This document shows, one piece after another, positions 345 through 16,086 of a stretch of DNA of 20,013 nucleotides; positions within the stretch are counted from its first letter, which is position 1, and every line of letters starts with the position of its first letter. The notes beneath the pieces are model-generated. The model was not told where the DNA came from. It did no database searches and worked only from the letters and a program-made list of their open reading frames with translations. The position numbers were made by a program, and so were the translations under genes. Source of the DNA: a bacterium (GTDB taxonomy: Bacteria > Zhuqueibacterota > Zhuqueibacteria > Oceanimicrobiales > Oceanimicrobiaceae); contig JBHHXN010000093.1 of assembly GCA_046757025.1 (NCBI GenBank), forward strand, positions 1 through 20,013, read 5' to 3'.

Positions 345-1603
345 ATAAATAAGATTGGACGATAATCTGATGCCACGACCGATTACACCAGGAAAACAAG
401 CAACCTATCATCACACCAAGCTTTTTTACGCTCCATTCAATTCACAAGCAGGAGCGCCGCCTGTTCTAACTGCAGATCCTTGGTCCTTTCTTATGGCAAC
501 CCTTTCTCAGAAAGTTGAGAGAAGCCGAGGAGAAAACAAGACCAGGTTGACGAAGGCCGTCTACTATGCAGCACAAGCTGAAGCATTTTACAGAACAGGC
601 AGAAATTCTGCCCAGCCGACTAAAGCGACTTTGGTTTACTATGGGTGCTAAACTTGGTTAAGTGCTTCCTCTCTGTGCGTGGAACTGACCTGGAAGTAAA
701 ACACGAACATCATGGTCTTCAGATTCCGCTTGGAGAAAAGCTCAAGGTTCAAGTGCCTGGCAGGACAACAAGCGGGGTCAACATTTTCCATAGATTTTCC
801 AAGGAATTTGACATAAGTCCGACGGTGGAATTGATTGACGTGAAAGACATAATGAAGCACATCCCTGAATTACACCAGATTTCATTCTCTCTGGGATTAC
901 TTCCAAATAACCAGCGCTGCTTCCTGCCTGTAAATATTGATTTACTCACGGATGAGAATGAACACTTTTTGTTTTCAGAAATCAGGTATTCGAAAAAACA
1001 AGAGTCACTGGTCAGAACTTCCAAGTTTCTGAGCGGCGAACGGCGTAAATACTTTAGAGACCCAAGGGAAGAAAATGGTCAAATAATCGTTAGATGCAAG
1101 AGAAGGAAATCCTTTACGTGGGACACGCTCCCAAGAATATATCAAAATATAATTAAAGAATATTCCAAATTTGGTATCGCAATGCTTTTGACCAGAGATG
1201 GATACAAATACTATATTGATTTGGAAACACCCAGGTATCATCACCTTTGCTATTCGTTGATGTTTATGTTTTATCTTGGAACCGTGACAAGATATCGACC
1301 CTCGGAGACTGAAGAAATTTTAAGCAGCGAGTTAAGGCCAGCAATAACAGAAGCACTCGCAACTTCACCAAACCAATTCCTATATCAAATGGTTGGGATT
1401 ATTACGGGCAAAGTCTGCGTAGTCCCATATTCTTATTTCGATACGATCTAAGGCCGCTCGTTCGCCAACGTTAGTGAGCCTGCTAACATTGTTTCCACCT
1501 GACGAGAGGGCTGTGGATTTTTGGCTTGGTTTAATGCTTTCTCATAGGTTATTCTAATAAGCAAGTCAGGTGCCCTTAATCCCTCTCGCAGGTGAAACTC
1601 TTG
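339..1603 (+). mobile_element. Integron gene cassette carrying the YaaC-like gene
   Basis: Bounded by G/TT crossover points at 338/339 and 1603/1604. The leading R' (GTTAGCA) is the exact reverse complement of the trailing R'' (TGCTAAC, 1481-1487), as expected for a cassette that once circularised. The ORF starts about 16 bp after the crossover, leaving no room for a promoter. Confidence 0.85.
355..1451 (+). pseudogene. YaaC-like protein, frameshifted (ORFs 355-651 and 645-1451 are one gene)
   Basis: Joined frames read ...PTKATLVYYG-x-LNLVKCFL...HHGL...MFYLGTVTRYRP, matching recalled YaaC-family motifs (YYxxLNLxK, HGL, LxxxxRYxP). TAT GGG TG CTA AAC at 640-653 is one base short. Start is TTG 355 or ATG 370. 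May be a sequencing error rather than a true pseudogene. Confidence 0.75.
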
Positions 1604-3412: not shown

Positions 3413-5221
3413 CTACCGGCTGGCAATCACGCTCTTCCGCCCTTTATTGGCTTCTTTCAGAAAGTCCATCAAAGGTTGAAAGTATTCGAGCATGGCGCGG
3501 GCGCTCAAATCTTCGCCGGTTTTTTCTTTCAGTACTTTGCGCCAATCCTTGCTAGACCCTGGCCGCATGATGCTTTTCAAAAAATCGCCGACTTCTTTGC
3601 TGCCATAGTAGTTACAGTTACGCGGATCCTGATTCAGAATTTTTCGCGCGATATAGTCGTGCAGATGAAATTTCAACACACAAGAAAGCGCGTAATCATA
3701 GTACTGTGCCGGATCATTATTTATGTGGGTTTTGCTGGCCGCGTCGCAGTATTCTTCACCGCGCGGTACCGGCGGCACGATGCCCTGATATTTGGCCACG
3801 TATTCCCACCAGCGCTCGTTGAACTGCTCTTTGGGCAGATTCTGTTCATAAAGATCATATTCGAAATGGGTCATGGTGCCGGCGGCGAAAGGAATAAACA
3901 CCACCGAGCTGGTAGAAAGCGCATCATTCAACAGCCATTGCACTTGATCGATTTCCTTTTCCTTCGGCAATAGCCCAAGATGCTCGAGATAAGCCCGCTG
4001 GGTAGAGGCAATCCGCATCAAATCGCCAATGCCCTCGTGGTAGCTGCGATTAGCGCCCCGCCTGAGAAGCAGCGGCACATCGGGATTGGTGTATTCGATG
4101 TAGTAATAAATGTGCCCGAGCTCGTGATGCGCGGTACCAAACCAGCGGCTGTTGGCTTCCACGCTCATCAACGAACGATAATCCTGATCGTAGTCCAGGT
4201 GCCAGGCCGAAGCATGATTATTTTTCTTGCGCGTAGAACCCTCTTCTACCGGGTAAAGATCAGACTTATCCCAGAAATTCTGATTGAGTGTATCGAACCC
4301 GAGGCTCACATAAAACTGTTCGGCGGTTTTATTGATCCATTCGGGAGTTTTATCTTTAAACAAATCATCCAGATCCACGGCTTCCACGATACCCGGCCAA
4401 TTTTGTCCCCAGCGATTTGGCAGCCAGTGAGCAGGCAAATATTCCGGCACGGTCTGATTGTAGCGTTCAGCCAATTCATAGCGAATGTAGGTGTGCAGCT
4501 CCGAATATAAAGGCCGCAGCTGTTCCACCAAATTATCCATGAGCGCCATCAACTCGTCCACGGTCATACCGTAGTCGGCCACCTCCAGGGCAAAAAACGA
4601 GCTGTAACCCATTTCCTGCGCCACCTGATTGCGCAATGATTGCAGATTTTCCAGGCCATCTTTCAATACCTTGCCCACTTCTTTGCTGGATTCCCAGGCA
4701 GCTAAACGCTGCTGTAAATCACGAGAGTCCACCAGAATGCGATCGATTTCATTGGTGGAGACGATTCGGGCTTTGCCTTTTTTGTCCCGCAGCACAAAAT
4801 CAAATCCATAAAGTAAGCTGTTTTGTTTGGTTTCCGCATTGATGAGCTCCTCGACCACCTCCGGAATTGTGGCCGGCTGATGAGCCGCACGCAAACGAAT
4901 TTTTTCCAACTGCAACACCTGCAAAGGATCGAGCTGGTCTTTTTGCTCTAACAAGGACCAAGTTTTCTCAATAACTTCTTTACTTCCGACATATTTAGCA
5001 AATTCTTTCTCCTTCAGAACATTCAAGCTGTCATGCTCATCACTGATGTCCGTGTTTGCCAGCCAGGCAGCTTGGGACGCCTCGTAGTAGAGTTTCTGGA
5101 AGTTTTCGGTGTATTCGCTGATGAATTCAGCGGCTTCCTTTTTCACCGTATTTTGTGCGCACGCCAACAACAACATGCTCCCCAAACTTAGGTAAAATCT
5201 CAACTTAAGAAATATCATCAT
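3413..5221 (-). CDS. M2-family metallopeptidase (ACE-like peptidyl-dipeptidase A), predicted lipoprotein
   Basis: HHELGH zinc motif, GANxxxHEGIGD third ligand, PLYxELHxYxR, LPAHWLxNxWGQxW, HASAW. Lipobox LLAC. Strong AAGGAGG RBS. Confidence 0.93.
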   Translation of the reverse strand: MMIFLKLRFYLSLGSMLLLACAQNTVKKEAAEFISEYTENFQKLYYEASQAAWLANTDISDEHDSLNVLKEKEFAKYVGSKEVIEKTWSLLEQKDQLDPLQVLQLEKIRLRAAHQPATIPEVVEELINAETKQNSLLYGFDFVLRDKKGKARIVSTNEIDRILVDSRDLQQRLAAWESSKEVGKVLKDGLENLQSLRNQVAQEMGYSSFFALEVADYGMTVDELMALMDNLVEQLRPLYSELHTYIRYELAERYNQTVPEYLPAHWLPNRWGQNWPGIVEAVDLDDLFKDKTPEWINKTAEQFYVSLGFDTLNQNFWDKSDLYPVEEGSTRKKNNHASAWHLDYDQDYRSLMSVEANSRWFGTAHHELGHIYYYIEYTNPDVPLLLRRGANRSYHEGIGDLMRIASTQRAYLEHLGLLPKEKEIDQVQWLLNDALSTSSVVFIPFAAGTMTHFEYDLYEQNLPKEQFNERWWEYVAKYQGIVPPVPRGEEYCDAASKTHINNDPAQYYDYALSCVLKFHLHDYIARKILNQDPRNCNYYGSKEVGDFLKSIMRPGSSKDWRKVLKEKTGEDLSARAMLEYFQPLMDFLKEANKGRKSVIASR

Positions 5222-5824: not shown

Positions 5825-6688
5825 TTGAGAACAATTAAGCGCACTTTTATCGGCAAACTTTTATTTTGGTCGCTCCCAATTTGCCTGACAACCACTTTGA
5901 CTCATGCCCAGAACCCCAACACCCAAATTGATACCACAAGCTATGCAGCACCTGCCAAAGAAATTTTAACTAAAAACACCTTGGAAGAAAAGCAATTCAC
6001 GGTGCGCAAGCACGATTTCATCGATCAGGTGGCCATTCGTCATTCCGCTCTCACCAGCGACACCAGCCTGGTTTTCGAGTTCAAGCTGAAATCCTACTCC
6101 TCTTTGCTGCTTTCTCCGGAAGAACTGCACGAAATCACCCCGCAGGGAGCCGATCCCGGAGGGGAAGCCATCCGTCGCCGGTTTCACGACATTCCCCCAA
6201 CCGTGCCCCTCAACGGTCTCATCAGAAGCTTAATCGCCAAAAGCAAGTCATCGCGTAAAAAGCGCTCGTTAGCAGAAATGCCGTTGCCATCGGATCTGGA
6301 GATAGAAATCCTGAAAGTGCTGTGGGTGCAGCCCATCGCCAGTTCCAGCGATATTTACGCTCAGTTGGATTCCACCCTGCCGCTCACTTCAGAAGACCTG
6401 AACAAAATTCTGGAACAGATGGCCGAGCGCGGCTTCCTCGATCGCAAAAAAGTTTCGCCTTCCCACGAATTCAACTTGTTCGGCATCGCCCAGATCGAGC
6501 TCAGCTCAAAGAACAGAAAAAACAAACTCTACCTCTACTGGCCACTGGTTCCTAAAAAAGAGCTGATCACTTACCTCGATTCAAAGCGCTATTTAGCTTT
6601 CGCTGCAGCTCAAAAAAACGGTCACAATGGCAATGAAAACTCGTATTACAAAATTCTCAAAGAAAAATTAAACCGCATTATAAAATAA
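5825..6688 (+). CDS. Hypothetical protein with N-terminal signal peptide and C-terminal BlaI/MecI/CopY-like winged helix
   Basis: TTG start with AAAGGA RBS. Signal-like N-terminus ending THA|Q. SDLEIEILKVLW...IYAQL...ILEQMAERGFLDR...LYLYWPLVPKKE aligns by eye with the BlaI pattern. Confidence 0.7.
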   Translation: MRTIKRTFIGKLLFWSLPICLTTTLTHAQNPNTQIDTTSYAAPAKEILTKNTLEEKQFTVRKHDFIDQVAIRHSALTSDTSLVFEFKLKSYSSLLLSPEELHEITPQGADPGGEAIRRRFHDIPPTVPLNGLIRSLIAKSKSSRKKRSLAEMPLPSDLEIEILKVLWVQPIASSSDIYAQLDSTLPLTSEDLNKILEQMAERGFLDRKKVSPSHEFNLFGIAQIELSSKNRKNKLYLYWPLVPKKELITYLDSKRYLAFAAAQKNGHNGNENSYYKILKEKLNRIIK

Positions 6689-6701: not shown

Positions 6702-7685
6702 TTAAAGCCATCCATTATCCAAATACCACCGATAAGTTTCCTGCACCGCTTCTTTCAAACCAAATTGCGTTTGAAATCCCAGTTCGCTTTTGGCTTTGGC
6801 ATTCGAGCAGAGCCAGAACCGCGGCCGCAGCTCTTTGAATTTATCGATGCTGAACAAACTGGGCTGCCGCAGAATACCGTTGTAAACCTGATAACCGCCG
6901 AACACCAAAAACGCCAGTGAAAGGGGAATCACCACTTTCCTGGCACGGACGGCCATCACTTCGGCCAGAGTTTCTGCAAAGGTCTGCCAGGAAATGAAAT
7001 CATCGTTGCACAGATAGTACATTTGGCCGCTTGATTGGGCTTTTTCAGCAACCAGCCAAATTCCCCGCACCAGATCTTTCACGTAGATTAAACTGAGATA
7101 GCGATCGCCGCCGCTTATTTGCAGATGAACGTTTTTTTGGGTCAACTTAAAAAAATTGAAAATGTCCGTATCGCGAGGACCAAAAACCGACGGCGGCCGC
7201 ACGATGGCGGTGGGCAGACGGGGCATGAAGGTGCGCGCCGCTTCTTCGGCCTGCAGTTTGCTCCGACCGTAATGCGAAACCGGTTGCGGGGGATCGGCTT
7301 CTTTCAGAGGTTGTTTGGAGGCGGCAGGGCCGGCAGCCGACTGACTGGAAACCAGCACAAATTTTTTCAGCGACAAATTATGTTTTTGCACAGCGCTGAG
7401 TAAATTTTTGGTGCCATCAACATTGACGTGGTAGTAAGCCGAGCGAGAAATAAATTTCGTGAGTCCCGCCAAGTGGAAGACATAATCCACGCCTTTCACC
7501 GCCTCGCTCAGCGATTCCGGCTCGTTGATATCGCCGGCCACGGCTTGAAAGTCCAACCCCTGAAGCCAGGTGTGGCGCCGGCAGTGGTTTCGCAACAGGC
7601 AGGTTACTTCCAGGCCGTGGTGCAATAATTCTTCCACTAAAAAACTGCCGATAAAGCCTCTCCCGCCGGTCACCAGCGCTTTCAA
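6702..7685 (-). CDS. NAD(P)-dependent epimerase/dehydratase (extended SDR); candidate ceramide reductase CerR
   Basis: TGGRGFIG Rossmann motif, HLAG, SSQSAAGP, YGRSK catalytic motif, RPPSVFGPRD. The SDR call is strong. The CerR role is inferred from adjacency to spt and bcerS. Confidence 0.8.
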   Translation of the reverse strand: MKALVTGGRGFIGSFLVEELLHHGLEVTCLLRNHCRRHTWLQGLDFQAVAGDINEPESLSEAVKGVDYVFHLAGLTKFISRSAYYHVNVDGTKNLLSAVQKHNLSLKKFVLVSSQSAAGPAASKQPLKEADPPQPVSHYGRSKLQAEEAARTFMPRLPTAIVRPPSVFGPRDTDIFNFFKLTQKNVHLQISGGDRYLSLIYVKDLVRGIWLVAEKAQSSGQMYYLCNDDFISWQTFAETLAEVMAVRARKVVIPLSLAFLVFGGYQVYNGILRQPSLFSIDKFKELRPRFWLCSNAKAKSELGFQTQFGLKEAVQETYRWYLDNGWL

Positions 7686-7875
7686 AGGCGCCCTCCAATT
7701 AAGAACAGTTTCGATCTAAAAGTGAGCATAGCCGCGCAATTCAATTATGAATACGAAAGACGTACCGCGAATATTTGACTTTTACTAAACTCGCTTGAAA
7801 AAAATCGCCTCTATTTTAGACATTTTTTTTGAAAGAATCAAGCTTTGCAGATTTAAACGCGTTGTAACTTTTACC

Positions 7876-7904
7876 TTGCTTTCTTCTTTGGCAATGTTTA
7901 TATT
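7876..7904 (+). promoter_or_regulatory. Putative sigma70 promoter for spt
   Basis: TTGCTT (7876-7881), 17 bp spacer, TATATT (7899-7904). AAGGAG RBS precedes GTG 7945. Confidence 0.6.
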
Positions 7905-7944
7905 TATCGTTTAAAAACAGACAATTAAAGTTAAGGAGAGCATC

Positions 7945-9129
7945 GTGGCAGACCTATTTGATAAATGTTACAACTTCACCAAGGCGAAAGAACTGCAGGA
8001 ACAGGGCTGGTATCCGTATTTTAAGGCGATTCAGTCCGGGGCTGACACCGAAGTCACGATCGGCGGTAGGAAACTCATCATGATTGGATCAAACAACTAC
8101 CTCGGACTCACGCAGGATGCGCGCATTAAAGAAGCCGCCCGGAAAGCGGTGATTGATTTTGGTTCCGGGTGCACAGGATCAAGATTTTTAAACGGCACCT
8201 TGTCTCTCCATGTAGAATTGGAAGAAAAATTAGCGGAATTCATGCAAAAAGAAGCCGCTTTGGTGTTTTCCACCGGCTTTCAAACTAATTTAGGAACCAT
8301 CTCCACCATAGCCGGTAAGGATGACATCATCTACACTGACCGCAACAATCACGCCTGCATTTTGGACGGCTGCCGTCTTTCGTTCGGCCGAATCGTGAAA
8401 TACAAGCACGACAACATGCGCGACCTGGAGCGCCTGTTAGCCGCCAGCAACGCCGACAGCGGTAAACTCATCGTCACGGACGGCGTTTTCAGTATGGAAG
8501 GCAATTTGACCAACCTGCCGGAAATCGTCGGTTTAGCCCAAAAATACCAAGCGCGTGTGATGGTGGACGATGCGCATTCCATCGGCGTCTTTGGTAAAAA
8601 CGGCCGCGGCACCGCCGAGCACTTCGGATTGGAAGACGAAGTCGATATCATCATGGGCACCTTCAGCAAATCGTTTGCTTCGTTGGGAGGATTTATCGCT
8701 GCGAATGCCCGCGTTATCGACTACATCAAGCACCACTCCCGTGCGCTGATCTTTTCTGCCAGCATGCCGCCGGCTGCGGTGGCGTCGGTAATCGCCGCTC
8801 TGGACATCATCAAAAAAGAACCCGAACGCAGAGAACGGTTGTGGCAGATCGTACGCAAAATGAAATCCGCTTTCGATGAGCTGGGATTTGACACTTGCAA
8901 AAGCGACAGCCCCGTGGTGCCCATCGTCATCGGCGAAATGATGGACACGTTTGTGTTCTGGAAACAGCTTTTTGAGAACGGCGTATTTGCCAATCCGGCG
9001 GTTCCCCCCGCGGTGCCGCCCGGAAAATCCTTGATCAGAACCAGCTACATGGCAACCCACACCGACGACGAATTGGACAAAGTCATCGAAATATTTGCAA
9101 ATTTAGGCAAAAAATTCGGGCTAATTTAA
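7945..9129 (+). CDS. spt: Serine palmitoyltransferase (PLP-dependent alpha-oxoamine synthase)
   Basis: GSNNYLGL; GSGCTGSRFLNGT, the Spt-type signature (unlike BioF GASRL or Kbl SVRFICGT); DGVFSMEG; DDAH; GTFSKS with the PLP lysine; FSAS. Next to a bCerS homolog. Confidence 0.88.
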   Translation: MADLFDKCYNFTKAKELQEQGWYPYFKAIQSGADTEVTIGGRKLIMIGSNNYLGLTQDARIKEAARKAVIDFGSGCTGSRFLNGTLSLHVELEEKLAEFMQKEAALVFSTGFQTNLGTISTIAGKDDIIYTDRNNHACILDGCRLSFGRIVKYKHDNMRDLERLLAASNADSGKLIVTDGVFSMEGNLTNLPEIVGLAQKYQARVMVDDAHSIGVFGKNGRGTAEHFGLEDEVDIIMGTFSKSFASLGGFIAANARVIDYIKHHSRALIFSASMPPAAVASVIAALDIIKKEPERRERLWQIVRKMKSAFDELGFDTCKSDSPVVPIVIGEMMDTFVFWKQLFENGVFANPAVPPAVPPGKSLIRTSYMATHTDDELDKVIEIFANLGKKFGLI

Positions 9130-9154
9130 AAGAGTGGTTCCAACGAATTATGTC

Positions 9155-9188
9155 AAAGGTCGTAGTCATTTTTCTGCGGCCTTTTTTT
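9155..9188 (+). terminator. Intrinsic terminator-like hairpin between spt and bcerS
   Basis: AAAGGTCGTAG / CTGCGGCCTTT stem with two G-U pairs, running into a T7 tract (9182-9188). Confidence 0.55.
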
Positions 9189-9214
9189 GTTTAACCTGAG
9201 AGAAGGCAAGTCAC

Positions 9215-10333
9215 ATGAATGTTGAAATCAAATCGGTTACCTCCAAACGAGAGCTGAAACAATTCATCAAACTGCCATGGCAGATCTACCACGACGACCC
9301 GCACTGGGTTCCGCCGCTGATTTTGGATATGAAAAATATCTTGAACCAGAACAAAAATCCTTTTTTTCAACACTCGGAAGCCGAATATTTTTTAGCCACC
9401 CGAAATGGCGAAGTGGTGGGGAGAATTGCCGCGATTTTAAACAACCGCCACAATCAAATTCACCAGGAAAACATCGGGTTCTTCGGATTCTTCGAATGCG
9501 TGAACGACGCAGCGGTAGCGGAGACCTTGATCGGGGTGGCGTCAGAATGGGCCCAAAGCCGGGGGTTGACTCACCTGCGTGGTCCCATGAATTTTTCCAC
9601 CAACGACACTTGCGGCTTTCTTTCGGAAGGATTCGACTCCAGCCCAGTGATTCTCATGACCTACAATCCCGAATATTATCTTGACTTGATGGAAAAAAAC
9701 GGCATGCAGAAAATTAAAGAATTGTACGCTTACTACTTCCATCGAGACATGCCCATTCCGGAACGGTTTGAAGTTATGAGCAAAAAAATGCTGCAGGACG
9801 AAAGCGTACAAATTCGCACTATTAACATGAAAGAATTCAAAAAAGAAGTCAAAGTTGTGCAAACCATTTACAACGAAGCCTGGCAGGCTAACTGGGGTTT
9901 TGTGCCCATGACCGACGCTGAATTCCAGCACATGGCCAAAGACCTGAAGCCGGCGGTGGATCCGGACATCGTTTTCATCGCGGAAGTCAACGGCGAAATC
10001 GCGGGTTTTTCTCTGGCCCTTCCGGACTTCAATCAGATTTTCAAAAAAATAAACGGCCGCTTGTTGCCTTTCGGCATTTTCAAACTGCTTTTGAATAAAA
10101 ATAAAATCAAGAATGTTCGGGTGGTGACATTGGGTGTGCGATCGAAGTTTCAAAGAAAACGTGCACTGGCGCCAACTTTTTATTATGAAACTTACACCAG
10201 AGGCAAAAACAAAGGCTACAACTGGGCGGAATTTTCGTGGATTTTGGAAGACAACACGCTTATGAATCGCGCGTTAGTGGCTCTCGGTGCCAAGCTGTAT
10301 AAAAAATATGCAATTTATGAAAAAAAATTGTGA
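9215..10333 (+). CDS. bcerS: GNAT-fold N-acyltransferase, bacterial ceramide synthase (bCerS/YghO-like)
   Basis: FIxLPWxIYxxDPxWVPPL, NPFF, VGRIAA, GFFGFFE, RGPMNFSTN, YNPEYY, AWxxNWGFVP, LPDFN, GRLLPFG and SWILEDN motifs, as recalled for this family. Directly downstream of spt. Confidence 0.85.
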   Translation: MNVEIKSVTSKRELKQFIKLPWQIYHDDPHWVPPLILDMKNILNQNKNPFFQHSEAEYFLATRNGEVVGRIAAILNNRHNQIHQENIGFFGFFECVNDAAVAETLIGVASEWAQSRGLTHLRGPMNFSTNDTCGFLSEGFDSSPVILMTYNPEYYLDLMEKNGMQKIKELYAYYFHRDMPIPERFEVMSKKMLQDESVQIRTINMKEFKKEVKVVQTIYNEAWQANWGFVPMTDAEFQHMAKDLKPAVDPDIVFIAEVNGEIAGFSLALPDFNQIFKKINGRLLPFGIFKLLLNKNKIKNVRVVTLGVRSKFQRKRALAPTFYYETYTRGKNKGYNWAEFSWILEDNTLMNRALVALGAKLYKKYAIYEKKL

Positions 10334-10669
10334 TCAATCGTACCAGTACAAAACCCGGCCGCAACCTTCGCACAAAATCACTTCCTGGTCGCTGCGCCCG
10401 CGGGTGAAAAGCGAGGTGGGTATGCGCATGAAACAGCCTAAACAGACGTCGTCTTTCACCGGTACGATGGAACGTTTGTATCGGGTTTTCAGCTTCTCAT
10501 AATTCGAAAGCAGAGGCTTGCTGATTTTTTTTACGATTTCATCTCTGGCTTCCTGAAGCTTTTCTCTGCCTGCCACTTCAAAACCCAAAGATTTGACGTC
10601 ATCGATATCTTTGATCATGATATCGAGATCTTGTAAAGCCACCAACAATTCGAGCTGTTTATTTAACAA
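10334..10669 (-). CDS. Short C4-type zinc-ribbon protein (DUF164/CT398 C-terminal-like)
   Basis: CLGC...CEGCGRVLY motif and LxxLQxLD N-terminus. TTG start abuts the PTS IIA stop, with a GAAGGAG RBS. Confidence 0.85.
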   Translation of the reverse strand: MLNKQLELLVALQDLDIMIKDIDDVKSLGFEVAGREKLQEARDEIVKKISKPLLSNYEKLKTRYKRSIVPVKDDVCLGCFMRIPTSLFTRGRSDQEVILCEGCGRVLYWYD

Positions 10670-11134
10670 TTAGTTTGCTCCTTCAAATACGTGAATGAAT
10701 TCTTCGAAATTTTCTGCCTGCAATAATTTTTTACGATTGGCGCTTTCGCTGACCACTTCCACCAATTTACCCAATGCTGGCAAATAACGGTTGTTTTCGT
10801 CCTGCGGCGGTGCCAGCATCACAAACACCAGGTGCACATCTTTTTTATCGATGGCGTCAAATGCAATGCCCGCTTCCGATCTGCCAAACGCAATTTTGAC
10901 TTCCAATGCCGCAGTGGTTCGACCGTGTGGAATGGCCACCCCCTTCCCGATGCCGGTGCTGCCGAGCATTTCGCGCTTTTTCAGCATCTCAACTACAATA
11001 CTCTTCTTACGCACCAATTTAGATTTTACAAACAATTCGGCCAATTCGGTAAAAACTTCATCTTTCGTTCGGGCTTTTAGAGACGAAACAAACAAATCCT
11101 TACTAAAAAATCCAATCAACTCTTTAGGCTGCAT
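10670..11134 (-). CDS. PTS EIIA domain protein (fructose/mannitol/PtsN-like), 154 aa
   Basis: REMLGSTGIGKGVAIPHGR with the phosphorylatable His; GIAFDAID. Start reassigned to ATG 11134 (MQPKEL) behind GAAGGAG. Confidence 0.9.
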   Translation of the reverse strand: MQPKELIGFFSKDLFVSSLKARTKDEVFTELAELFVKSKLVRKKSIVVEMLKKREMLGSTGIGKGVAIPHGRTTAALEVKIAFGRSEAGIAFDAIDKKDVHLVFVMLAPPQDENNRYLPALGKLVEVVSESANRKKLLQAENFEEFIHVFEGAN

Positions 11135-11171
11135 CTTCTCTCCTTCATTGCGTTTTTGGGAAGAATTCTTT

Positions 11172-11432
11172 TTATTCCATACTACTCGCATTTTCTATGA
11201 CCTCTCTTAAAGCCGGAACGATGTACAGATCATTGACATCCAATTTTTGTTTGAGTTCTTTTGCCAGAACGTTGATTTTCTGTTTGATGTTTAAACTTTT
11301 ATTGATAACAAATTGCTCTTTCTCGTTGTACCGATAAAAACCGCCTACAAAATCTCCCTTCTCGTAACGAAGGTCCACCGAGAGCTGCGCGATCAATTCC
11401 TCAAGACTGGCTAAAATCTGTTCTTCATTCAT
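11172..11432 (-). CDS. Hypothetical protein (86 aa)
   Basis: Tightly packed in the operon between manC and PTS IIA. RYEKGDFVGG and YIVPALRE look conserved. The LAKEL segment resembles a degenerate HExxH helix. Confidence 0.75.
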   Translation of the reverse strand: MNEEQILASLEELIAQLSVDLRYEKGDFVGGFYRYNEKEQFVINKSLNIKQKINVLAKELKQKLDVNDLYIVPALREVIENASSME

Positions 11433-11445
11433 GGTGGGATTTCAT

Positions 11446-12516
11446 CTACAATAATTTGTGCATTTTTTTTCTTTTGATCAAATCTACCAGGTCCTTCACA
11501 TCCTGAGCCCGGTTGCGCGGACAAATCAAAATGGCGTCATCGGTGTCCACGACGATCAACTCGTCCAGTCCAAGAACCGCCACGCTCCTTTTCGGGGCGT
11601 CGATATAACAACCTTTACCGTCCAAAATGACGTGTTCGCCGAGCAGAATATTGTCTTCCCCGTTCTGGCTTAAAATGGTGTACACTTCGTCCCAGCTTCC
11701 TAAATCGTTCCAGTCAAATTTGCCTTGCAGCACCACCACGTCTTTTGCCTGTTCCATCACCCCGTAATCGATGGAATTGCTTTTGATTTGACAGTAAACC
11801 CGGTGAATGGTTTCATCCTGTTTATCGGTACCCAGCACTTTTCTGATTTCGAGCAAACCATCGTAAAGGTGGGGTAAATACTCCTCCAGCTCTTGTAAGA
11901 TAGTTTTTATTTTCCAGATAAAGATACCGCTATTCCATAAAAAATCACCGCTTTCCATAAATCTCTGAGCGGTGGCTAAATTGGGTTTCTCCGCAAACGT
12001 TTTGACTTTGAGCAGCGTCACTCCATTAATGGTATCAATTTGTTCATGGTATTGAATGTACCCGTAGCCGGTGGCCGGATAAGTCGGTTCAATTCCGATG
12101 GTGATCAGATTGTCTTTTTCCCGTGCAATTTTATCGCCCACCTTTAAGGTTTTGATAAATTGCTCATCGCCGCTGATCAAGTGATCAGCCGGCATCACCA
12201 CCATCACTTCATCGGGGTCAATTCGTTCGAGGAATAACGCTCCCAATCCGATACAGGGCGCGGTGTTTTTGCCTTTGGGCTCAATGATAAAATTTTCTGC
12301 TGGTAAATGGGGCAATTGTGCGATGATTTCTTCGCGCTGTTTTTCTGTGGTCACCACAAAAATCTTATCAAGTGGAATCAGAGGCAGCAACCTCTTCACG
12401 GTACACTGAATCATGGTATTTTCGCCTAAAATTTTCAAAAGCTGTTTCGGATGCTTTTCGCGACTTTTAGGCCAGAATCTCGTGCCCACTCCACCCGCCA
12501 TGATCAAGGCTATCAT
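11446..12516 (-). CDS. manC: Mannose-1-phosphate guanylyltransferase (monofunctional, no cupin PMI domain)
   Basis: MAGGVGTRFWPKSR, PKQ, EPxGKNTAP, PADH, TGYGYI, FAEKP, WNSGIF, SIDYGVME and WNDLGSW motifs. Confidence 0.93.
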   Translation of the reverse strand: MIALIMAGGVGTRFWPKSREKHPKQLLKILGENTMIQCTVKRLLPLIPLDKIFVVTTEKQREEIIAQLPHLPAENFIIEPKGKNTAPCIGLGALFLERIDPDEVMVVMPADHLISGDEQFIKTLKVGDKIAREKDNLITIGIEPTYPATGYGYIQYHEQIDTINGVTLLKVKTFAEKPNLATAQRFMESGDFLWNSGIFIWKIKTILQELEEYLPHLYDGLLEIRKVLGTDKQDETIHRVYCQIKSNSIDYGVMEQAKDVVVLQGKFDWNDLGSWDEVYTILSQNGEDNILLGEHVILDGKGCYIDAPKRSVAVLGLDELIVVDTDDAILICPRNRAQDVKDLVDLIKRKKMHKLL

Positions 12517-12717
12517 GTATGAATTCTCCTGGAAACTAACAATATGAGTGAATTAAGAAATGGGTAACAACCATTGTTGACAGCATATTTTCTATACATC
12601 AGCAAGCAATGGATATATAAATAGTGGAATACAAGAGGTAAGACTTCAATTTTCGAATTGGGCTGTTTAGTCATCGTTAGCATGCATGTTGAAAGTTATT
12701 AATTCATACAATTAAAA

Positions 12718-13929
12718 TCAAGCATTTTTCAATATCGAGCTGATTGTGTTCAGAATTTTCAGTGTAATCAAAGCCGGGCTGGCTTTCATTACAGCGAAAA
12801 GATTTTGACGTGTGAAGGCGCCTTTTAAAATGGGGGGGATTAAATCTGCGGGGACTTTTGCCAGCGCCCTGATTTTTTCATCCCAATCATGGTCTGAATA
12901 CTGCGCGATGCGATCGTGAATGGTAGCAGCCAGAAAGAACGAGCGCCGATATTTTTTTTGCCAGCGGCGTTCATATTTTATGAGAAAACGGGAATCGATT
13001 CTTTCCGCCCGAATGGCCTCAGCGGCGGTCTCACCAGCCATGCGCCCGATATCTATGGCAAAACGTATGCCCTCTCCCAGAAGAATCGAGATCAAGCCGC
13101 CAGCATCGCCTGCCACCAGCAGTCCGTCGGCGACGGTTTTTTGCAAAGGGCGTTGGCCGGGAATGCGACCGACATGATATTCTAAACAACTGACGTTGGT
13201 AAATTCACCATTAAAAAGTTCTTTGTTGTTCAAAATTTGGTCCAGGTAATTTTTGGGATCGCCGGTGGAATCGGGGTAGATCAAACCCACACCCAAACGC
13301 ACGCGCTGGTTTTTGTGGGGAAAAATCCAGGCGTAGCCAGAAGGAACAAATTTTTTACCCAATAAAAAAACGGCCCGGCCACAGGGCCAATGCGGCGCAA
13401 ACAAATCGTATTCCGCGCCAACGCCGTACCGTTTAAAACCGCTGAACAGTCCCGTTTTGCGGCCGATGATGGCTGAGATACCGCTGGCGTCGATGGTCAC
13501 GCCGGCTGAAATTTCGACCAGTTTCCCGTGCCGACGCGCCTTCACCCCGCGTAATTTCCCATCCTTTTTCAAAGGCTCTAAAACGGTGGTGTTGACAAAA
13601 ATTTCAGCGCCTTCAGCCGCAGCGAGCTCTGCCAGGTACTGATAAAGCCCGCGAACATCCAGCACACAGCTCGGCGGCGAGGTATATGTAAACTCGGCTC
13701 GTTCTTTTGCAGAATAAAAAAAACCCTCATAGATGGGGTTCATAAATTTCTCAGGAATGTCTAACTGTTTTAATTCTTCGATCCAGCTACCGCCGCTGGT
13801 ATGAATGGGATAACCGATTTCTTTGCTTTTTTCTAATACGGCAACTCGAATGCCTGCTTTAGCCGCCGAGTAGGCCGCAGATAAACCCGCCGGTCCCCCG
13901 CCGACGACCACCACGTCGTATTTCATCAA
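12718..13929 (-). CDS. Geranylgeranyl-reductase-family FAD-dependent oxidoreductase
   Basis: GGGPAG FAD motif, DASG, PSGYAWIFP (PxxYxWxFP), GDAGG...GEGI. Confidence 0.82.
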   Translation of the reverse strand: MMKYDVVVVGGGPAGLSAAYSAAKAGIRVAVLEKSKEIGYPIHTSGGSWIEELKQLDIPEKFMNPIYEGFFYSAKERAEFTYTSPPSCVLDVRGLYQYLAELAAAEGAEIFVNTTVLEPLKKDGKLRGVKARRHGKLVEISAGVTIDASGISAIIGRKTGLFSGFKRYGVGAEYDLFAPHWPCGRAVFLLGKKFVPSGYAWIFPHKNQRVRLGVGLIYPDSTGDPKNYLDQILNNKELFNGEFTNVSCLEYHVGRIPGQRPLQKTVADGLLVAGDAGGLISILLGEGIRFAIDIGRMAGETAAEAIRAERIDSRFLIKYERRWQKKYRRSFFLAATIHDRIAQYSDHDWDEKIRALAKVPADLIPPILKGAFTRQNLFAVMKASPALITLKILNTISSILKNA

Positions 13930-13943
13930 TCAGGAATGCCCTC

Positions 13944-13977
13944 AAAAAAACAGGCACTTGCTCTCATCAAGTGCTTG
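13944..13977 (-). terminator. Intrinsic terminator after trxA
   Basis: Minus strand CAAGCACTTG-ATGAGAG-CAAGTGCCTG (one mismatch) followed by T7, 20 bp after the trxA stop. Confidence 0.65.
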
Positions 13978-13997
13978 GTCAGTAATCGGTTCGTATT

Positions 13998-14321
13998 TTA
14001 TAAAGAAGCTTCCAGTTTGGATTTGATTTGATTTTTGGGAACGGCGCCAATAATCTGGTCAACGACTTCGCCATTTTTAAAAATCAATAGCGAAGGGATA
14101 CTCCGGATACCGTATTTCGCAGCCACTTCCTGATGGTTGTCCACATCCAATTTGCCAATTTTGGCTTTCCCTTCAAATTCTGCGGCCAATTCCTCCACAT
14201 GCGGTGCGATCATTTTGCACGGCCCGCACCAGGCTGCCCAGAAGTCCACCAAAACAGGCTGGTCGGAAGAAAGCACTTCAGATTCAAAATTCTCAACTGT
14301 CAATTCGATAGGTTTGGACAT
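13998..14321 (-). CDS. trxA: Thioredoxin
   Basis: VDFWAAWCGPCK active site, 107 aa, IRSIP cis-Pro loop, AAGGAG RBS. Confidence 0.97.
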   Translation of the reverse strand: MSKPIELTVENFESEVLSSDQPVLVDFWAAWCGPCKMIAPHVEELAAEFEGKAKIGKLDVDNHQEVAAKYGIRSIPSLLIFKNGEVVDQIIGAVPKNQIKSKLEASL

Positions 14322-14464
14322 TGTAAAACTCCTTCTACTTACTGATATGTTGTCTGCTCAAGCTTGTCAATCATAAGCAACAGGCCTTTTCTAACGGGCA
14401 CTCCTGAATGATTAATTTTATGAATGCCAATCTTGAAATGTTTTCCTTTTAACTCTGGTGCCGT

Positions 14465-14493
14465 AAAATAAAAAGCTCGCAGTAAAATTGCAA
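14465..14493 (-). promoter_or_regulatory. Possible sigma70 promoter for trxA
   Basis: TTGCAA, 17 bp spacer, TATTTT on the minus strand. AT-rich context weakens the call. Confidence 0.35.
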
Positions 14494-14559
14494 GGGATTT
14501 GAAATTAAAATTCAGCAATGTTTTGTTACATTGAATTAACATGCACCTGCCATTCTCGT

Positions 14560-16086
14560 TTATAAAATCCATTTCGTCAGCAGTGATAACCGCTGCTGAA
14601 AAAATATTTTAAATTGCTTCAGGTGCAGATTGAACCTTTTTGATTGTAAAAAAGACATCAGCCCGATATAGATAAAGCCAAATTGAAACAACAAAAAGAA
14701 AGGAATGGAAATAAACAATCCCTTGTTCAATAAACTCAAGAGCGAAATGGTAAAGTAGCTTCCCATCAAAAGCTCCAGTACGGGCTGATAGTCAAAATCC
14801 GAACGATAGGTTTTATTCTTCCAGTTATCCCTGGTGTTTTCAATGCTATATTTAGGCGTGCGTTTAAATTCTGTAGCGTAGTTGAACAGCGCCTCTAACA
14901 CGGCTTTCGTGTTGTTGATGGACAGACCGATTCCCAGCGACATGAGAATGGGTAAGTACGGAATTTGCTTCTGCCAGTCCGCTTGACTTTCTTTTTGCGA
15001 AATCAAATAGTAAAAAATAACCGAAAGGGTCGCGGTAAAAAATACGAAAAAGTACACGTACACCATCCAGTCCCAGTCGCGCCTCAATTGCAGATGCAGA
15101 ATGATGGGCATGAAAAGCGACGGGATGGTCATGAACAAATACGTTAAATTGCTGACCAGATGCACGCCGGCTTCTAATTTCACAAAGAACGGTAATTTGC
15201 TTTTGAAAATAAAAGGCAGCAGTTTTTTAGCGGTTTGCACCGACCCCTTTGCCCAGCGGTGCTGCTGGGATTTGTAGGCGTTGATTTCCACGGGCAACTC
15301 CGCCGGCGCCACCACATCGGGTAAATAAACAAATTTCCAGCCGGCTAATTGCGCCCGATAGCTCAAGTCCAGATCTTCGGTTAACGTGTCGTGCTGCCAA
15401 CCGCCGGCGTCGAATATGGCTTCTTTGCGCCAGATACCCGCGGTACCGTTGAAATTGAAAAATCGACCAGAGCGATTTCTCGCGGTGTGCTCGATGATAA
15501 AATGCCCATCCAAAAACATGGACTGAATGCGGGTCAACAAAGAATAGTTGCGGTTCAAATGGCCCCAGCGCGCTTGCACCAATCCCACTTTCTGATTGGT
15601 AAAATACGGTAAAGTTTGTTTTAAAAAATCCGGTTTAGGAACAAAATCGGCATCGAAAACAGCCACAAACTCGCCCTTTGCCTGCTGGAGTCCCACGTCT
15701 AAAGCTCCGGCCTTGAATCCTGTGCGATTTTCTCGATGAATGTGGCGAACGTCAATTCCCTGCGCCTGATACATTCTCACCAAATCACGCGCGACAATTT
15801 TGGTTTCATCGATGGAATCATCCAAAATTTGAATTTCCAGTCGATCTTTTGGATAATCCAAATTGCACACGGACTCGAGCAATCTTTCGATGACATACTT
15901 TTCGTTGAACAAGGGGAGCTGTACGGTAACCACCGGCAGTTTACACAATTTACCTTTTTTATATATCGGTTTGTTTTTATGCTTGAGATAAAGATAAAGC
16001 AGAAAATATTTGTGGACCCCAAACATCACTAACATCAACAATATCAAACCATAAAAAATAAAAAAACAAACTTCTAAAATAGTCAT
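14560..16086 (-). CDS. Membrane GT2 glycosyltransferase, cellulose-synthase-like (CslA-like)
   Basis: QLPLFNE, LDDS, RxGFKAGAL, FDADF, VQARWGH, FNGTAGIWR, TLTEDLDLS and QQHRWAKG (D,D,D,QxxRW), F.RTPK. N- and C-terminal TM helices. Confidence 0.9.
   Translation of the reverse strand: MTILEVCFFIFYGLILLMLVMFGVHKYFLLYLYLKHKNKPIYKKGKLCKLPVVTVQLPLFNEKYVIERLLESVCNLDYPKDRLEIQILDDSIDETKIVARDLVRMYQAQGIDVRHIHRENRTGFKAGALDVGLQQAKGEFVAVFDADFVPKPDFLKQTLPYFTNQKVGLVQARWGHLNRNYSLLTRIQSMFLDGHFIIEHTARNRSGRFFNFNGTAGIWRKEAIFDAGGWQHDTLTEDLDLSYRAQLAGWKFVYLPDVVAPAELPVEINAYKSQQHRWAKGSVQTAKKLLPFIFKSKLPFFVKLEAGVHLVSNLTYLFMTIPSLFMPIILHLQLRRDWDWMVYVYFFVFFTATLSVIFYYLISQKESQADWQKQIPYLPILMSLGIGLSINNTKAVLEALFNYATEFKRTPKYSIENTRDNWKNKTYRSDFDYQPVLELLMGSYFTISLLSLLNKGLFISIPFFLLFQFGFIYIGLMSFLQSKRFNLHLKQFKIFFQQRLSLLTKWIL

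What the first reader, a model, noticed from the sequence alone, without database searches (positions are those of the whole stretch)
6702..10333. Compact three-gene bacterial ceramide (sphingolipid) biosynthesis locus
Seen: an extended SDR divergent from an Spt-signature oxoamine synthase, followed by a GNAT protein with bCerS-family motifs. Established: the bacterial pathway defined in Caulobacter uses Spt, then bCerS N-acylation, then CerR reduction. Inference: all three core steps are encoded around one 259-bp divergent promoter region, with no dedicated ACP or acyl-CoA ligase in the window. This predicts dihydroceramide production in a probably uncultured FCB-type lineage. Generic annotation would likely call these BioF-like, hypothetical and epimerase.
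Basis: partly seen in the sequence, partly recalled or inferred. Interest (0 to 1): 0.8.

Follow-up and report, generated by a model that had tools for sequence, protein, structure and literature searches.

The report
Ceramide genes in LPS-free bacterial family
Three neighbouring genes that likely make the membrane lipid ceramide are kept across an uncultured bacterial family whose genomes lack the genes for the usual outer-membrane lipid (LPS) but keep its export machinery, so a ceramide-based lipid probably takes its place, as in Sphingomonas.

Summary
In detail: an extended SDR, a 259-bp divergent gap, an Spt-type synthase and a tandem-GNAT bCerS/YghO homologue. Spt and bCerS are well supported. 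The SDR is the two-way best hit of the E. coli CerR homologue (26%) and groups with CerR (91/91), but the alternative tree is not rejected (p-AU 0.18).

The cassette itself is ordinary. It is complete in 26 of 61 class genomes (KSB1-type), recurs in Ignavibacteria and Aureispira, and this scan logged similar loci before on other DNA (143 notes match the search words).

The context is more interesting. In all 21 genomes of this family lpxC, lpxB and waaA were not found and kdsA did not pass its cut-off; lpxC and lpxB matched in 38 of 40 relatives. The genes are cut out cleanly at three conserved loci. This genome keeps BamA and LptA/B/C/D/F/G.

A KSB1 clade without LPS genes is already in print (PMC9012183); I found no paper tying it to sphingolipids. 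Most likely the cassette supplies an LPS-replacing sphingolipid, perhaps inositol-phosphoceramide. No lipid has been measured.

The parts
6702..7685 (-). Extended SDR, CerR-like ketoreductase (327 aa), likely NADPH-using and cytoplasmic
   Evidence: Best genome hit for E. coli, Sphingomonas and Rahnella CerR homologues, 26-29%; its best hit in a whole E. coli chromosome is the CerR homologue; clade with CerRs 91/91, alternative not rejected; S113/Y139/K143 and R32; in-frame stop 11 codons upstream leaves no room for a signal peptide
7686..7944 (.). 259-bp divergent intergenic region, presumed promoters
   Evidence: AT-rich with purine-rich RBS-like sequence before both starts; divergent arrangement in 34 of 61 genomes; one sigma70-like site inside, not above chance
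7945..9129 (+). Serine palmitoyltransferase (Spt), FCB type (394 aa)
   Evidence: Best NCBIfam NF047600 at 571 bits (cut-off 640) vs 432 BioF/Kbl-type, 400 Kbl, 394 BioF; best PDB hits are Spt 3a2b/8guh at E 1e-136 vs 9e-93 for the next family; groups with Spts away from Kbl/BioF, SH-aLRT 95
9215..10333 (+). bCerS/YghO-family tandem GNAT N-acyltransferase (372 aa)
   Evidence: 33-41% identity over the full length to E. coli YghO, Sphingomonas, Rahnella, Rubrobacter and Streptomyces spt-linked GNATs; only homologue in the genome; model pLDDT 93 with tandem GNAT fold

Best explanation
The three genes likely make dihydroceramide, and in this family, whose genomes lack the lipid A genes, that ceramide is probably the backbone of the lipid that replaces LPS in the outer membrane. 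Spt would condense serine with a long acyl-CoA or housekeeping acyl-ACP to 3-ketosphinganine (inferred from sequence; no AcpR/AasR found). The GNAT would add the N-acyl chain. The SDR would reduce the 3-keto group with NADPH, probably in the cytoplasm because it has no signal peptide; whether reduction comes before or after acylation is untested. An unlinked inositol-phosphate synthase plus an AUR1-like PAP2 enzyme would add an anionic inositol-phosphate head (weakest step). The Lpt bridge would carry the lipid to the outer leaflet (inferred by analogy). Shown here: the genes, their homology, their conservation, the loss of lipid A/Kdo genes, the retention of BamA and Lpt. My odds per step: Spt 0.93, bCerS 0.9, SDR as the 3-keto reductase 0.75, LPS replacement 0.65, inositol head 0.4.
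For: Gene identities. The PAVP acyl-tunnel motif equals that of the top PDB Spt (motif role from PMC10865984 passages). Same cassette in Aureispira anguillae; A. marina is reported ceramide-rich and probably LPS-free (PMC7956469 passages). Lipid A loss in the family: lpxC 0 of 21 vs 38 of 40 other class genomes; lpxB 0 of 21 vs 38 of 40; waaA 0 of 21 vs 2 of 2 sister-family genomes; kdsA over cut-off 0 of 21; lpxK 1 of 21, a 27-bit fragment in a 9%-contaminated bin. Syntenic deletions: lpxD, the LpxC half of LpxC-FabZ and lpxA are gone inside contig C9, and lpxB-lpxK inside C15; pyrG abuts lptC in G005 and G010 where relatives have kdsA-kdsD-lpxL. Kept in G000: BamA, LptF/G (83), LptD (91), LptB (93), LptC and LptA-like (122). 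Sphingomonas shows the same pattern (bioRxiv 10.64898/2026.04.12.717747 passages). MIPS in 21 of 21 and a PAP2_3 gene in 19 of 21 family genomes. All three ceramide genes are missing together only in two LPS-positive genomes, G027 and G052.
Against: No lipid or enzyme data. Spt scores below the NF047600 cut-off (571 < 640), though the Aureispira Spt scores lower still (487). SDR identity to proteobacterial CerR is only 26-29%, with E about 1e-25 at the Black Sea study's database size, short of that study's 1e-30 filter; an HpnA/EPS-SDR grouping is not rejected. The cassette, MIPS, PAP2_3 and GT2 are also present in LPS-positive relatives (37 of 40 have all three ceramide genes), so they predate the loss and are not specific to it. 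No lpt gene lies in the window. All three genes were found in only 18 of 21 family genomes (misses: bins of 70% and 76% completeness, and one with the GNAT at a contig end). Caulobacter CerR is periplasmic (PMC11087976), which this protein does not look to be.
Confidence: 0.65

Rival explanations
1. The cassette makes ceramide as an inherited accessory lipid, and LPS is replaced by something else (a glycoglycerolipid or inositol glycerophospholipid, as in spirochaetes or Thermus-type envelopes) that the Lpt system carries.
For: Cassette present in 37 of 40 mostly LPS-positive relatives. MIPS plus a CDP-alcohol transferase can make PI-diacylglycerol without ceramide (PMC9246714 passages). Lpt is also kept in control genomes with no lpxC/lpxB match, such as Thermus, Deinococcus and Thermotoga.
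Against: Every near-complete family genome but one has all three genes, while two LPS-positive genomes lost all three. Precedent in Sphingomonas and Aureispira. No squalene-hopene cyclase in 5 of 5 genomes tested.
Confidence: 0.2
2. Spt and bCerS work as proposed, but the SDR is not the ceramide reductase (for example an HpnA- or sugar-type SDR kept nearby), so the product is oxidised ceramide or is reduced by another enzyme such as a BT_0972-type KDSR.
For: Low identity to CerR; best NCBIfam hit HpnA, 142 bits; p-AU 0.18; unlinked from spt in 27 of 61 genomes; a separate KDSR exists in B. thetaiotaomicron (PMC9278070 passages).
Against: The E. coli and Sphingomonas CerR homologues also have HpnA as best sub-cut-off hit. 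Two-way best hit with the E. coli CerR homologue. Of 14 plasmid-collection records hit by the SDR, 7 also carry the GNAT among the listed hits. No hopene cyclase. It sits beside spt in three FCB lineages.
Confidence: 0.1
3. The synthase prefers another amino acid (alanine, glycine or cysteate), giving 1-deoxyceramide or sulfonolipid, or is a Kbl/BioF.
For: Below the Spt model cut-off; oxoamine synthases are close in sequence; 1-deoxyceramides are reported in anoxic waters where such lineages live (PMC11334938 passages).
Against: Cysteate acyltransferase 28eh scores E 1e-74 vs 1e-136 for Spt. The genome's second oxoamine synthase groups with Kbl. Spt clade support 95.
Confidence: 0.05

Closest known systems
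Caulobacter crescentus / E. coli Spt-bCerS(YghO)-CerR ceramide pathway (CCNA_01220/01212/01222; ECD_02854/02850/02852)
   Same: Three homologous enzymes, clustered; GNAT 35% identical to E. coli YghO over the full length; SDR is a two-way best hit of the E. coli CerR homologue.
   Different: No AcpR/AasR; no lptF2/G2 in the locus; Spt is of the FCB type (38% to E. coli Spt); SDR is divergently transcribed and shows no export signal, whereas Caulobacter CerR is periplasmic; those hosts keep LPS.
Sphingomonas LPS-free envelope (glycosphingolipid in place of LPS)
   Same: Lacks LpxC, LpxB and WaaA, keeps the Lpt system and the ceramide genes (passages).
   Different: Another phylum, so an independent loss; no AcpR/AasR; lptFG not beside the ceramide genes; head group unknown, inositol-phosphate is a candidate rather than glucuronic acid.
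Aureispira (Bacteroidota) and Ignavibacteria SDR<spt>bCerS> cassette
   Same: Identical order and orientation; A. marina reported ceramide-rich and probably LPS-free.
   Different: Stygiobacter electus keeps lpxK; none of these cassettes was found characterised in the papers I read.
KSB1 clade IV of Li et al. 2022 (PMC9012183)
   Same: No lpxC-fabZ or waaA in 15 of 15 MAGs, lpxB in 1 of 15, pelG in 10 of 15 (supplement 7 rows); this family has pelG in 14 of 21.
   Different: That paper has no match for 'sphingo' in its main text and no K00654 row in the 11 searchable supplements. Equating the family with clade IV is my inference from gene content.
Bacteroides thetaiotaomicron inositol-phosphoceramide pathway (BT_1522-BT_1526)
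   Same: MIPS next to a CDP-alcohol transferase, plus a PAP2_3-family gene, in this genome.
   Different: The PAP2_3 gene is unlinked; orthology to BT_1522 was not tested; B. thetaiotaomicron keeps its lpx genes.

Membership tests
Bacterial serine palmitoyltransferase | Closer to Spt than to Kbl, BioF, HemA or cysteate acyltransferase | tested here: met
Bacterial serine palmitoyltransferase | PLP lysine motif GTFSKS and acyl-tunnel PAxP motif | tested here: met
   K242 in GTFSKSFASLGG; PAVP as in 3a2b
NCBIfam NF047600 (CFB Spt equivalog) | Score of at least 640 bits | tested here: not met
   571 bits; the Aureispira Spt scores 487
Bacterial serine palmitoyltransferase | Condenses serine with acyl-CoA/ACP | not testable with these tools
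   Needs an enzyme assay
bCerS / YghO | Full-length homology to proteobacterial bCerS homologues (E <= 1e-30, cover >= 50% as in PMC11334938) | tested here: met
   E 1e-74 to 1e-78 against E. coli, Sphingomonas and Rahnella homologues; the Caulobacter sequence itself was not available
bCerS / YghO | GNAT fold and linkage to spt | tested here: met
   Tandem GNAT; adjacent to spt in 41 of 61 genomes
bCerS / YghO | N-acylates the long-chain base | not testable with these tools
   Needs an assay
CerR | Orthology to proteobacterial CerR | tested here: inconclusive
   Two-way best hit; clade 91/91; alternative p-AU 0.18; E about 1e-25, short of the 1e-30 filter with the three queries used
CerR | Intact SDR nucleotide-binding and S/Y/K catalytic residues | tested here: met
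CerR | Periplasmic location as in Caulobacter | tested here: inconclusive
   No room for a signal peptide, but the E. coli and Sphingomonas homologues also start at the Rossmann motif
Rhodobacterial five-gene pathway | Dedicated AcpR and AasR | tested here: not met
   One ACP in the genome, no AcpR hit, AasR hits of 22-28%
Sphingomonas-type LPS-free diderm | Lipid A/Kdo genes absent | tested here: met
Sphingomonas-type LPS-free diderm | Outer-membrane and Lpt machinery kept | tested here: met
   G000; LptD and LptB in 3 of 3 family genomes tested
Sphingomonas-type LPS-free diderm | Sphingolipid shown in the outer leaflet | not testable with these tools
   Uncultured; no lipid data
HpnA (hopanoid SDR) | TIGR03466 cut-off and a hopene cyclase in the genome | tested here: not met
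   142 < 368 bits; no shc in 5 of 5 genomes

The most novel reading that the evidence does not exclude
A whole family of KSB1-type bacteria deleted lipid A and Kdo synthesis, independently of Sphingomonas, and now builds its outer leaflet from an inositol-phosphoceramide made by this cassette and exported by its ordinary, unduplicated Lpt bridge. G049 would be a second loss in the same class. This gives LPS-positive and LPS-free sister lineages with orthologous Lpt proteins, a natural pair for finding what switches Lpt cargo from LPS to sphingolipid.
Probability: 0.35. Interest if true: 0.75.

Novelty: new member of a known kind. Interest (0 to 1): 0.5.

Why it matters
The cassette alone adds one more lineage to a pathway already known to be widespread. 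It matters through its setting. How sphingolipids reach the outer membrane in bacteria with a single lptFG copy is stated as open in the 2026 Caulobacter preprint. Here a family has lost LPS yet kept Lpt, while its sister families keep both. That makes the cargo question testable by comparing or swapping orthologous Lpt subunits, and it predicts a sphingolipid biomarker for an uncultured lineage.

Tried and rejected
The founding paper (Stankeviciute et al. 2022) is not held, so it is cited through other papers only; its query set and the Black Sea supplement (too large) could show whether KSB1 genomes were already listed as producers. Caulobacter bCerS/CerR sequences were not obtained; E. coli, Sphingomonas, Rahnella, Roseomonas, Pseudomonas and Diaphorobacter homologues, assigned by their place in aasR/acpR/spt clusters, stood in. 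No PDB sequence relative for the GNAT. The single-sequence fold was useless (pLDDT 33); the alignment-based fold worked. The first SDR tree (59 rows, quick) left CerR monophyly open; the second used 29 rows after dropping redundant and long-branch rows. The promoter/terminator scan was at chance level. HpnA reading rejected. BioF/Kbl reading rejected. Assembly gaps as the cause of missing lpx genes rejected, because the deletions lie inside contigs with both flanks kept; G000's own kds-lpt locus is broken at a contig end, so G005 and G010 were used. The GT2 at 14560-16086 as an LPS-loss-specific gene rejected: 11 of 40 relatives outside the family also have it. The genome-contig scan returned only 13 loci and none from this class, so the family could not be named.
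Full report
OBSERVATION. The window is the whole contig C93 of a 5.96-Mb genome, 94.8% complete and 0.8% contaminated.

SYNTHASE. Its best NCBIfam model is the CFB serine palmitoyltransferase NF047600 (571 bits, under the 640 cut-off), ahead of the BioF/Kbl-type (432), Kbl (400) and BioF (394) models. The best solved relatives are Spt entries 3a2b and 8guh (E 1e-136); BioF/Kbl reach 9e-93 and cysteate acyltransferase 1e-74. In a 21-row quick tree it lies with Spts (SH-aLRT 95), while the genome's only other oxoamine synthase goes with E. coli Kbl. GTFSKS (K242) and a PAVP tunnel motif are present (motif role from passages of PMC10865984).

ACYLTRANSFERASE. It has a weak Pfam GNAT hit and no NCBIfam hit. 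It aligns end to end with E. coli YghO (35%), a Sphingomonas homologue (33%) and spt-linked GNATs of Rahnella, Rubrobacter and Streptomyces (38-41%), E <= 1e-73. YghO is named as the E. coli counterpart of Caulobacter CC_1154 in PMC9386255 (passages). A model from 77 sequences (pLDDT 93) has a tandem GNAT fold. The family is large: 7968 of 8000 scored candidates passed.

REDUCTASE. This is the weakest assignment. Identity to proteobacterial CerR homologues is 26-29%. Still, it is the best hit in its genome for 3 of 3 such queries, and its best hit in a complete E. coli chromosome is the CerR homologue (E 2e-23, next 1e-17). Its best NCBIfam hit is HpnA below cut-off, as for the E. coli and Sphingomonas homologues. 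A careful 29-row tree puts it in a 17-row clade with five proteobacterial CerRs, two actinobacterial spt-linked SDRs, two Bacteroidales SDRs and one long-branch Nitrospirota SDR of unknown role (91/91), apart from HpnA, YbjS/OleD-like and sugar epimerases. Forcing it with the HpnA/EPS group was not rejected (p-AU 0.18; group chosen after seeing the tree). I did not verify that the Bacteroidales SDRs are orthologues of B. fragilis BF9343_4240. S113, Y139 and K143 are intact, and R32 after the second strand suggests NADPH by general SDR knowledge. There is no room for a signal peptide, whereas Caulobacter CerR is periplasmic (PMC11087976, parts 1-2 of 4 read).

SPREAD. Among 61 genomes of the class, all three genes were found in 55 and the full divergent cassette in 26 (12 of 21 in the family). 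I counted one hit per genome, orthologue-level hits only for spt and the SDR, and for G025 the partial GNAT next to spt rather than its top score. The same order occurs in four Ignavibacteria loci, including cultured Stygiobacter electus, and in Aureispira anguillae. The GNAT groups (99) with family members and with proteins labelled KSB1 and Calditrichaeota by NCBI, so the lineage is KSB1-type (Zhuqueibacterota, FCB; PMC11683472 passages). Clustered spt/bCerS/cerR homologues and Spt-like genes in 38 phyla are published (PMC11334938, abstract, section 20 and passages), and 143 notes of this scan hold the same search words. The cassette is therefore ordinary.

LIPID A IS GONE IN THE FAMILY. lpxC: 0 of 21 family genomes, 38 of 40 others. 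lpxB: 0 of 21, 38 of 40. waaA: 0 of 21, 2 of 2 sister-family genomes. kdsA above cut-off: 0 of 21; the weaker hits of about 120 bits are probably DAHP synthases. lpxK: one 27-bit fragment in a 9%-contaminated bin, otherwise none of 21. Thirteen of the 21 are at least 90% complete and at most 5% contaminated. Kin are not independent, so this counts as one event. Synteny shows deletion, not assembly gaps. Relatives have bamA-skp-lpxD-lpxC/fabZ-lpxA; G000 has bamA-skp and a 164-aa FabZ-only remnant inside a 71-kb contig. lpxB, its neighbour and lpxK are missing between two retained genes about 180 bp apart on C15. In G005 and G010 pyrG abuts lptC where G021 and G041 carry kdsA-kdsD-lpxL. G000 keeps BamA, LptF, LptG, LptB, LptC, an LptA-like gene and LptD; LptB and LptD were checked in 3 of 21 family genomes. 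Li et al. 2022 reported that KSB1 clade IV lacks LPS genes and has pel genes (PMC9012183 passages and five rows of supplement 7). pelG is in 14 of 21 here, so the family is probably that clade. That paper does not mention sphingolipids, and searches listed no paper making the link; most subscription journals are not searched.

MECHANISM. Spt would make 3-ketosphinganine from serine and acyl-CoA or housekeeping acyl-ACP (one ACP, no AcpR/AasR). The GNAT would N-acylate it and the SDR would reduce the ketone, in an order I cannot fix. For a head group, MIPS is in 21 of 21 and a PAP2_3 gene in 19 of 21 family genomes, with a CDP-alcohol transferase beside MIPS in G000. This recalls the B. thetaiotaomicron inositol-phosphoceramide route (PMC9246714 passages), but both genes are also in the two LPS-positive sister genomes and orthology to BT_1522 was not tested. 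Export by Lpt is by analogy with Sphingomonas, which lacks LpxC, LpxB and WaaA and keeps Lpt (bioRxiv 10.64898/2026.04.12.717747 passages), and with Aureispira marina (PMC7956469 passages).

AGAINST. The cassette predates the loss (37 of 40 outside genomes have all three genes). Lpt also persists in control genomes with no lpxC/lpxB match, such as Thermus and Deinococcus. Three family bins miss one or two of the genes. Nothing has been measured. In favour of dependence, the only genomes lacking all three genes (G027, G052) keep lpxC and lpxB, and no hopene cyclase was found in 5 of 5 genomes.

VERDICT. A real, conserved ceramide cassette: a new member of a known kind. Alone it would merit about 0.3. 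Its place in a family that has cleanly deleted lipid A synthesis while keeping Lpt makes a Sphingomonas-like envelope likely (0.65) and gives a testable handle on sphingolipid export. Interest 0.5.

Noticed in passing
G049 (same class, family f8; 97% complete): No lpxC, lpxB or lpxK found, yet it has the ceramide genes and a second Spt-like gene: a possible second, independent LPS loss.
   Followed up: partly
G027 and G052 (genus g25): Both lack all three ceramide genes and keep lpxC and lpxB, the mirror case.
   Followed up: partly
window 5825-6688 (+): 287-aa protein with a signal-peptide-like N-terminus and a BlaI-type winged helix (PF03965), convergent on the SDR in 13 of 21 class loci. 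An exported protein with a DNA-binding fold is odd.
   Followed up: no
window 10334-16086 (-): Conserved convergent run: Zn ribbon, PTS EIIA, small protein, ManC, geranylgeranyl-reductase-like, thioredoxin and a 508-aa GT2 with a weak Glyco_transf_21 hit. The GT2 is in 9 of 9 family loci but also in LPS-positive relatives; a possible but unsupported glycosylceramide synthase.
   Followed up: partly
window 9155-9194 (+): An 11-pair hairpin followed by a T-run lies between spt and the GNAT; it could attenuate read-through, but such sites are not above chance in the region.
   Followed up: no
window 355-1451 (+): YaaC-like gene in two overlapping frames (profile positions 12-66 and 66-304): probable frameshift or split gene.
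   Followed up: no
window 3413-5221 (-): Bacterial angiotensin-converting-enzyme-like peptidase M2, probably a lipoprotein.
   Followed up: no
G000 C42:9582-11866 and C249:3816-5972: The MIPS plus CDP-alcohol transferase block occurs twice with the same neighbours: duplication or binning contamination.
   Followed up: no
L033:5983-10128: The E. coli cerR-aasR-yghO stretch is covered at 80% or more in 4090 of 5426 complete E. coli genomes, so it is far from a BL21 oddity.
   Followed up: no
L036:4704-8071 and L037:4769-8051: Plasmid-borne spt-bCerS-SDR operons in the monoderms Rubrobacter radiotolerans and Streptomyces.
   Followed up: no
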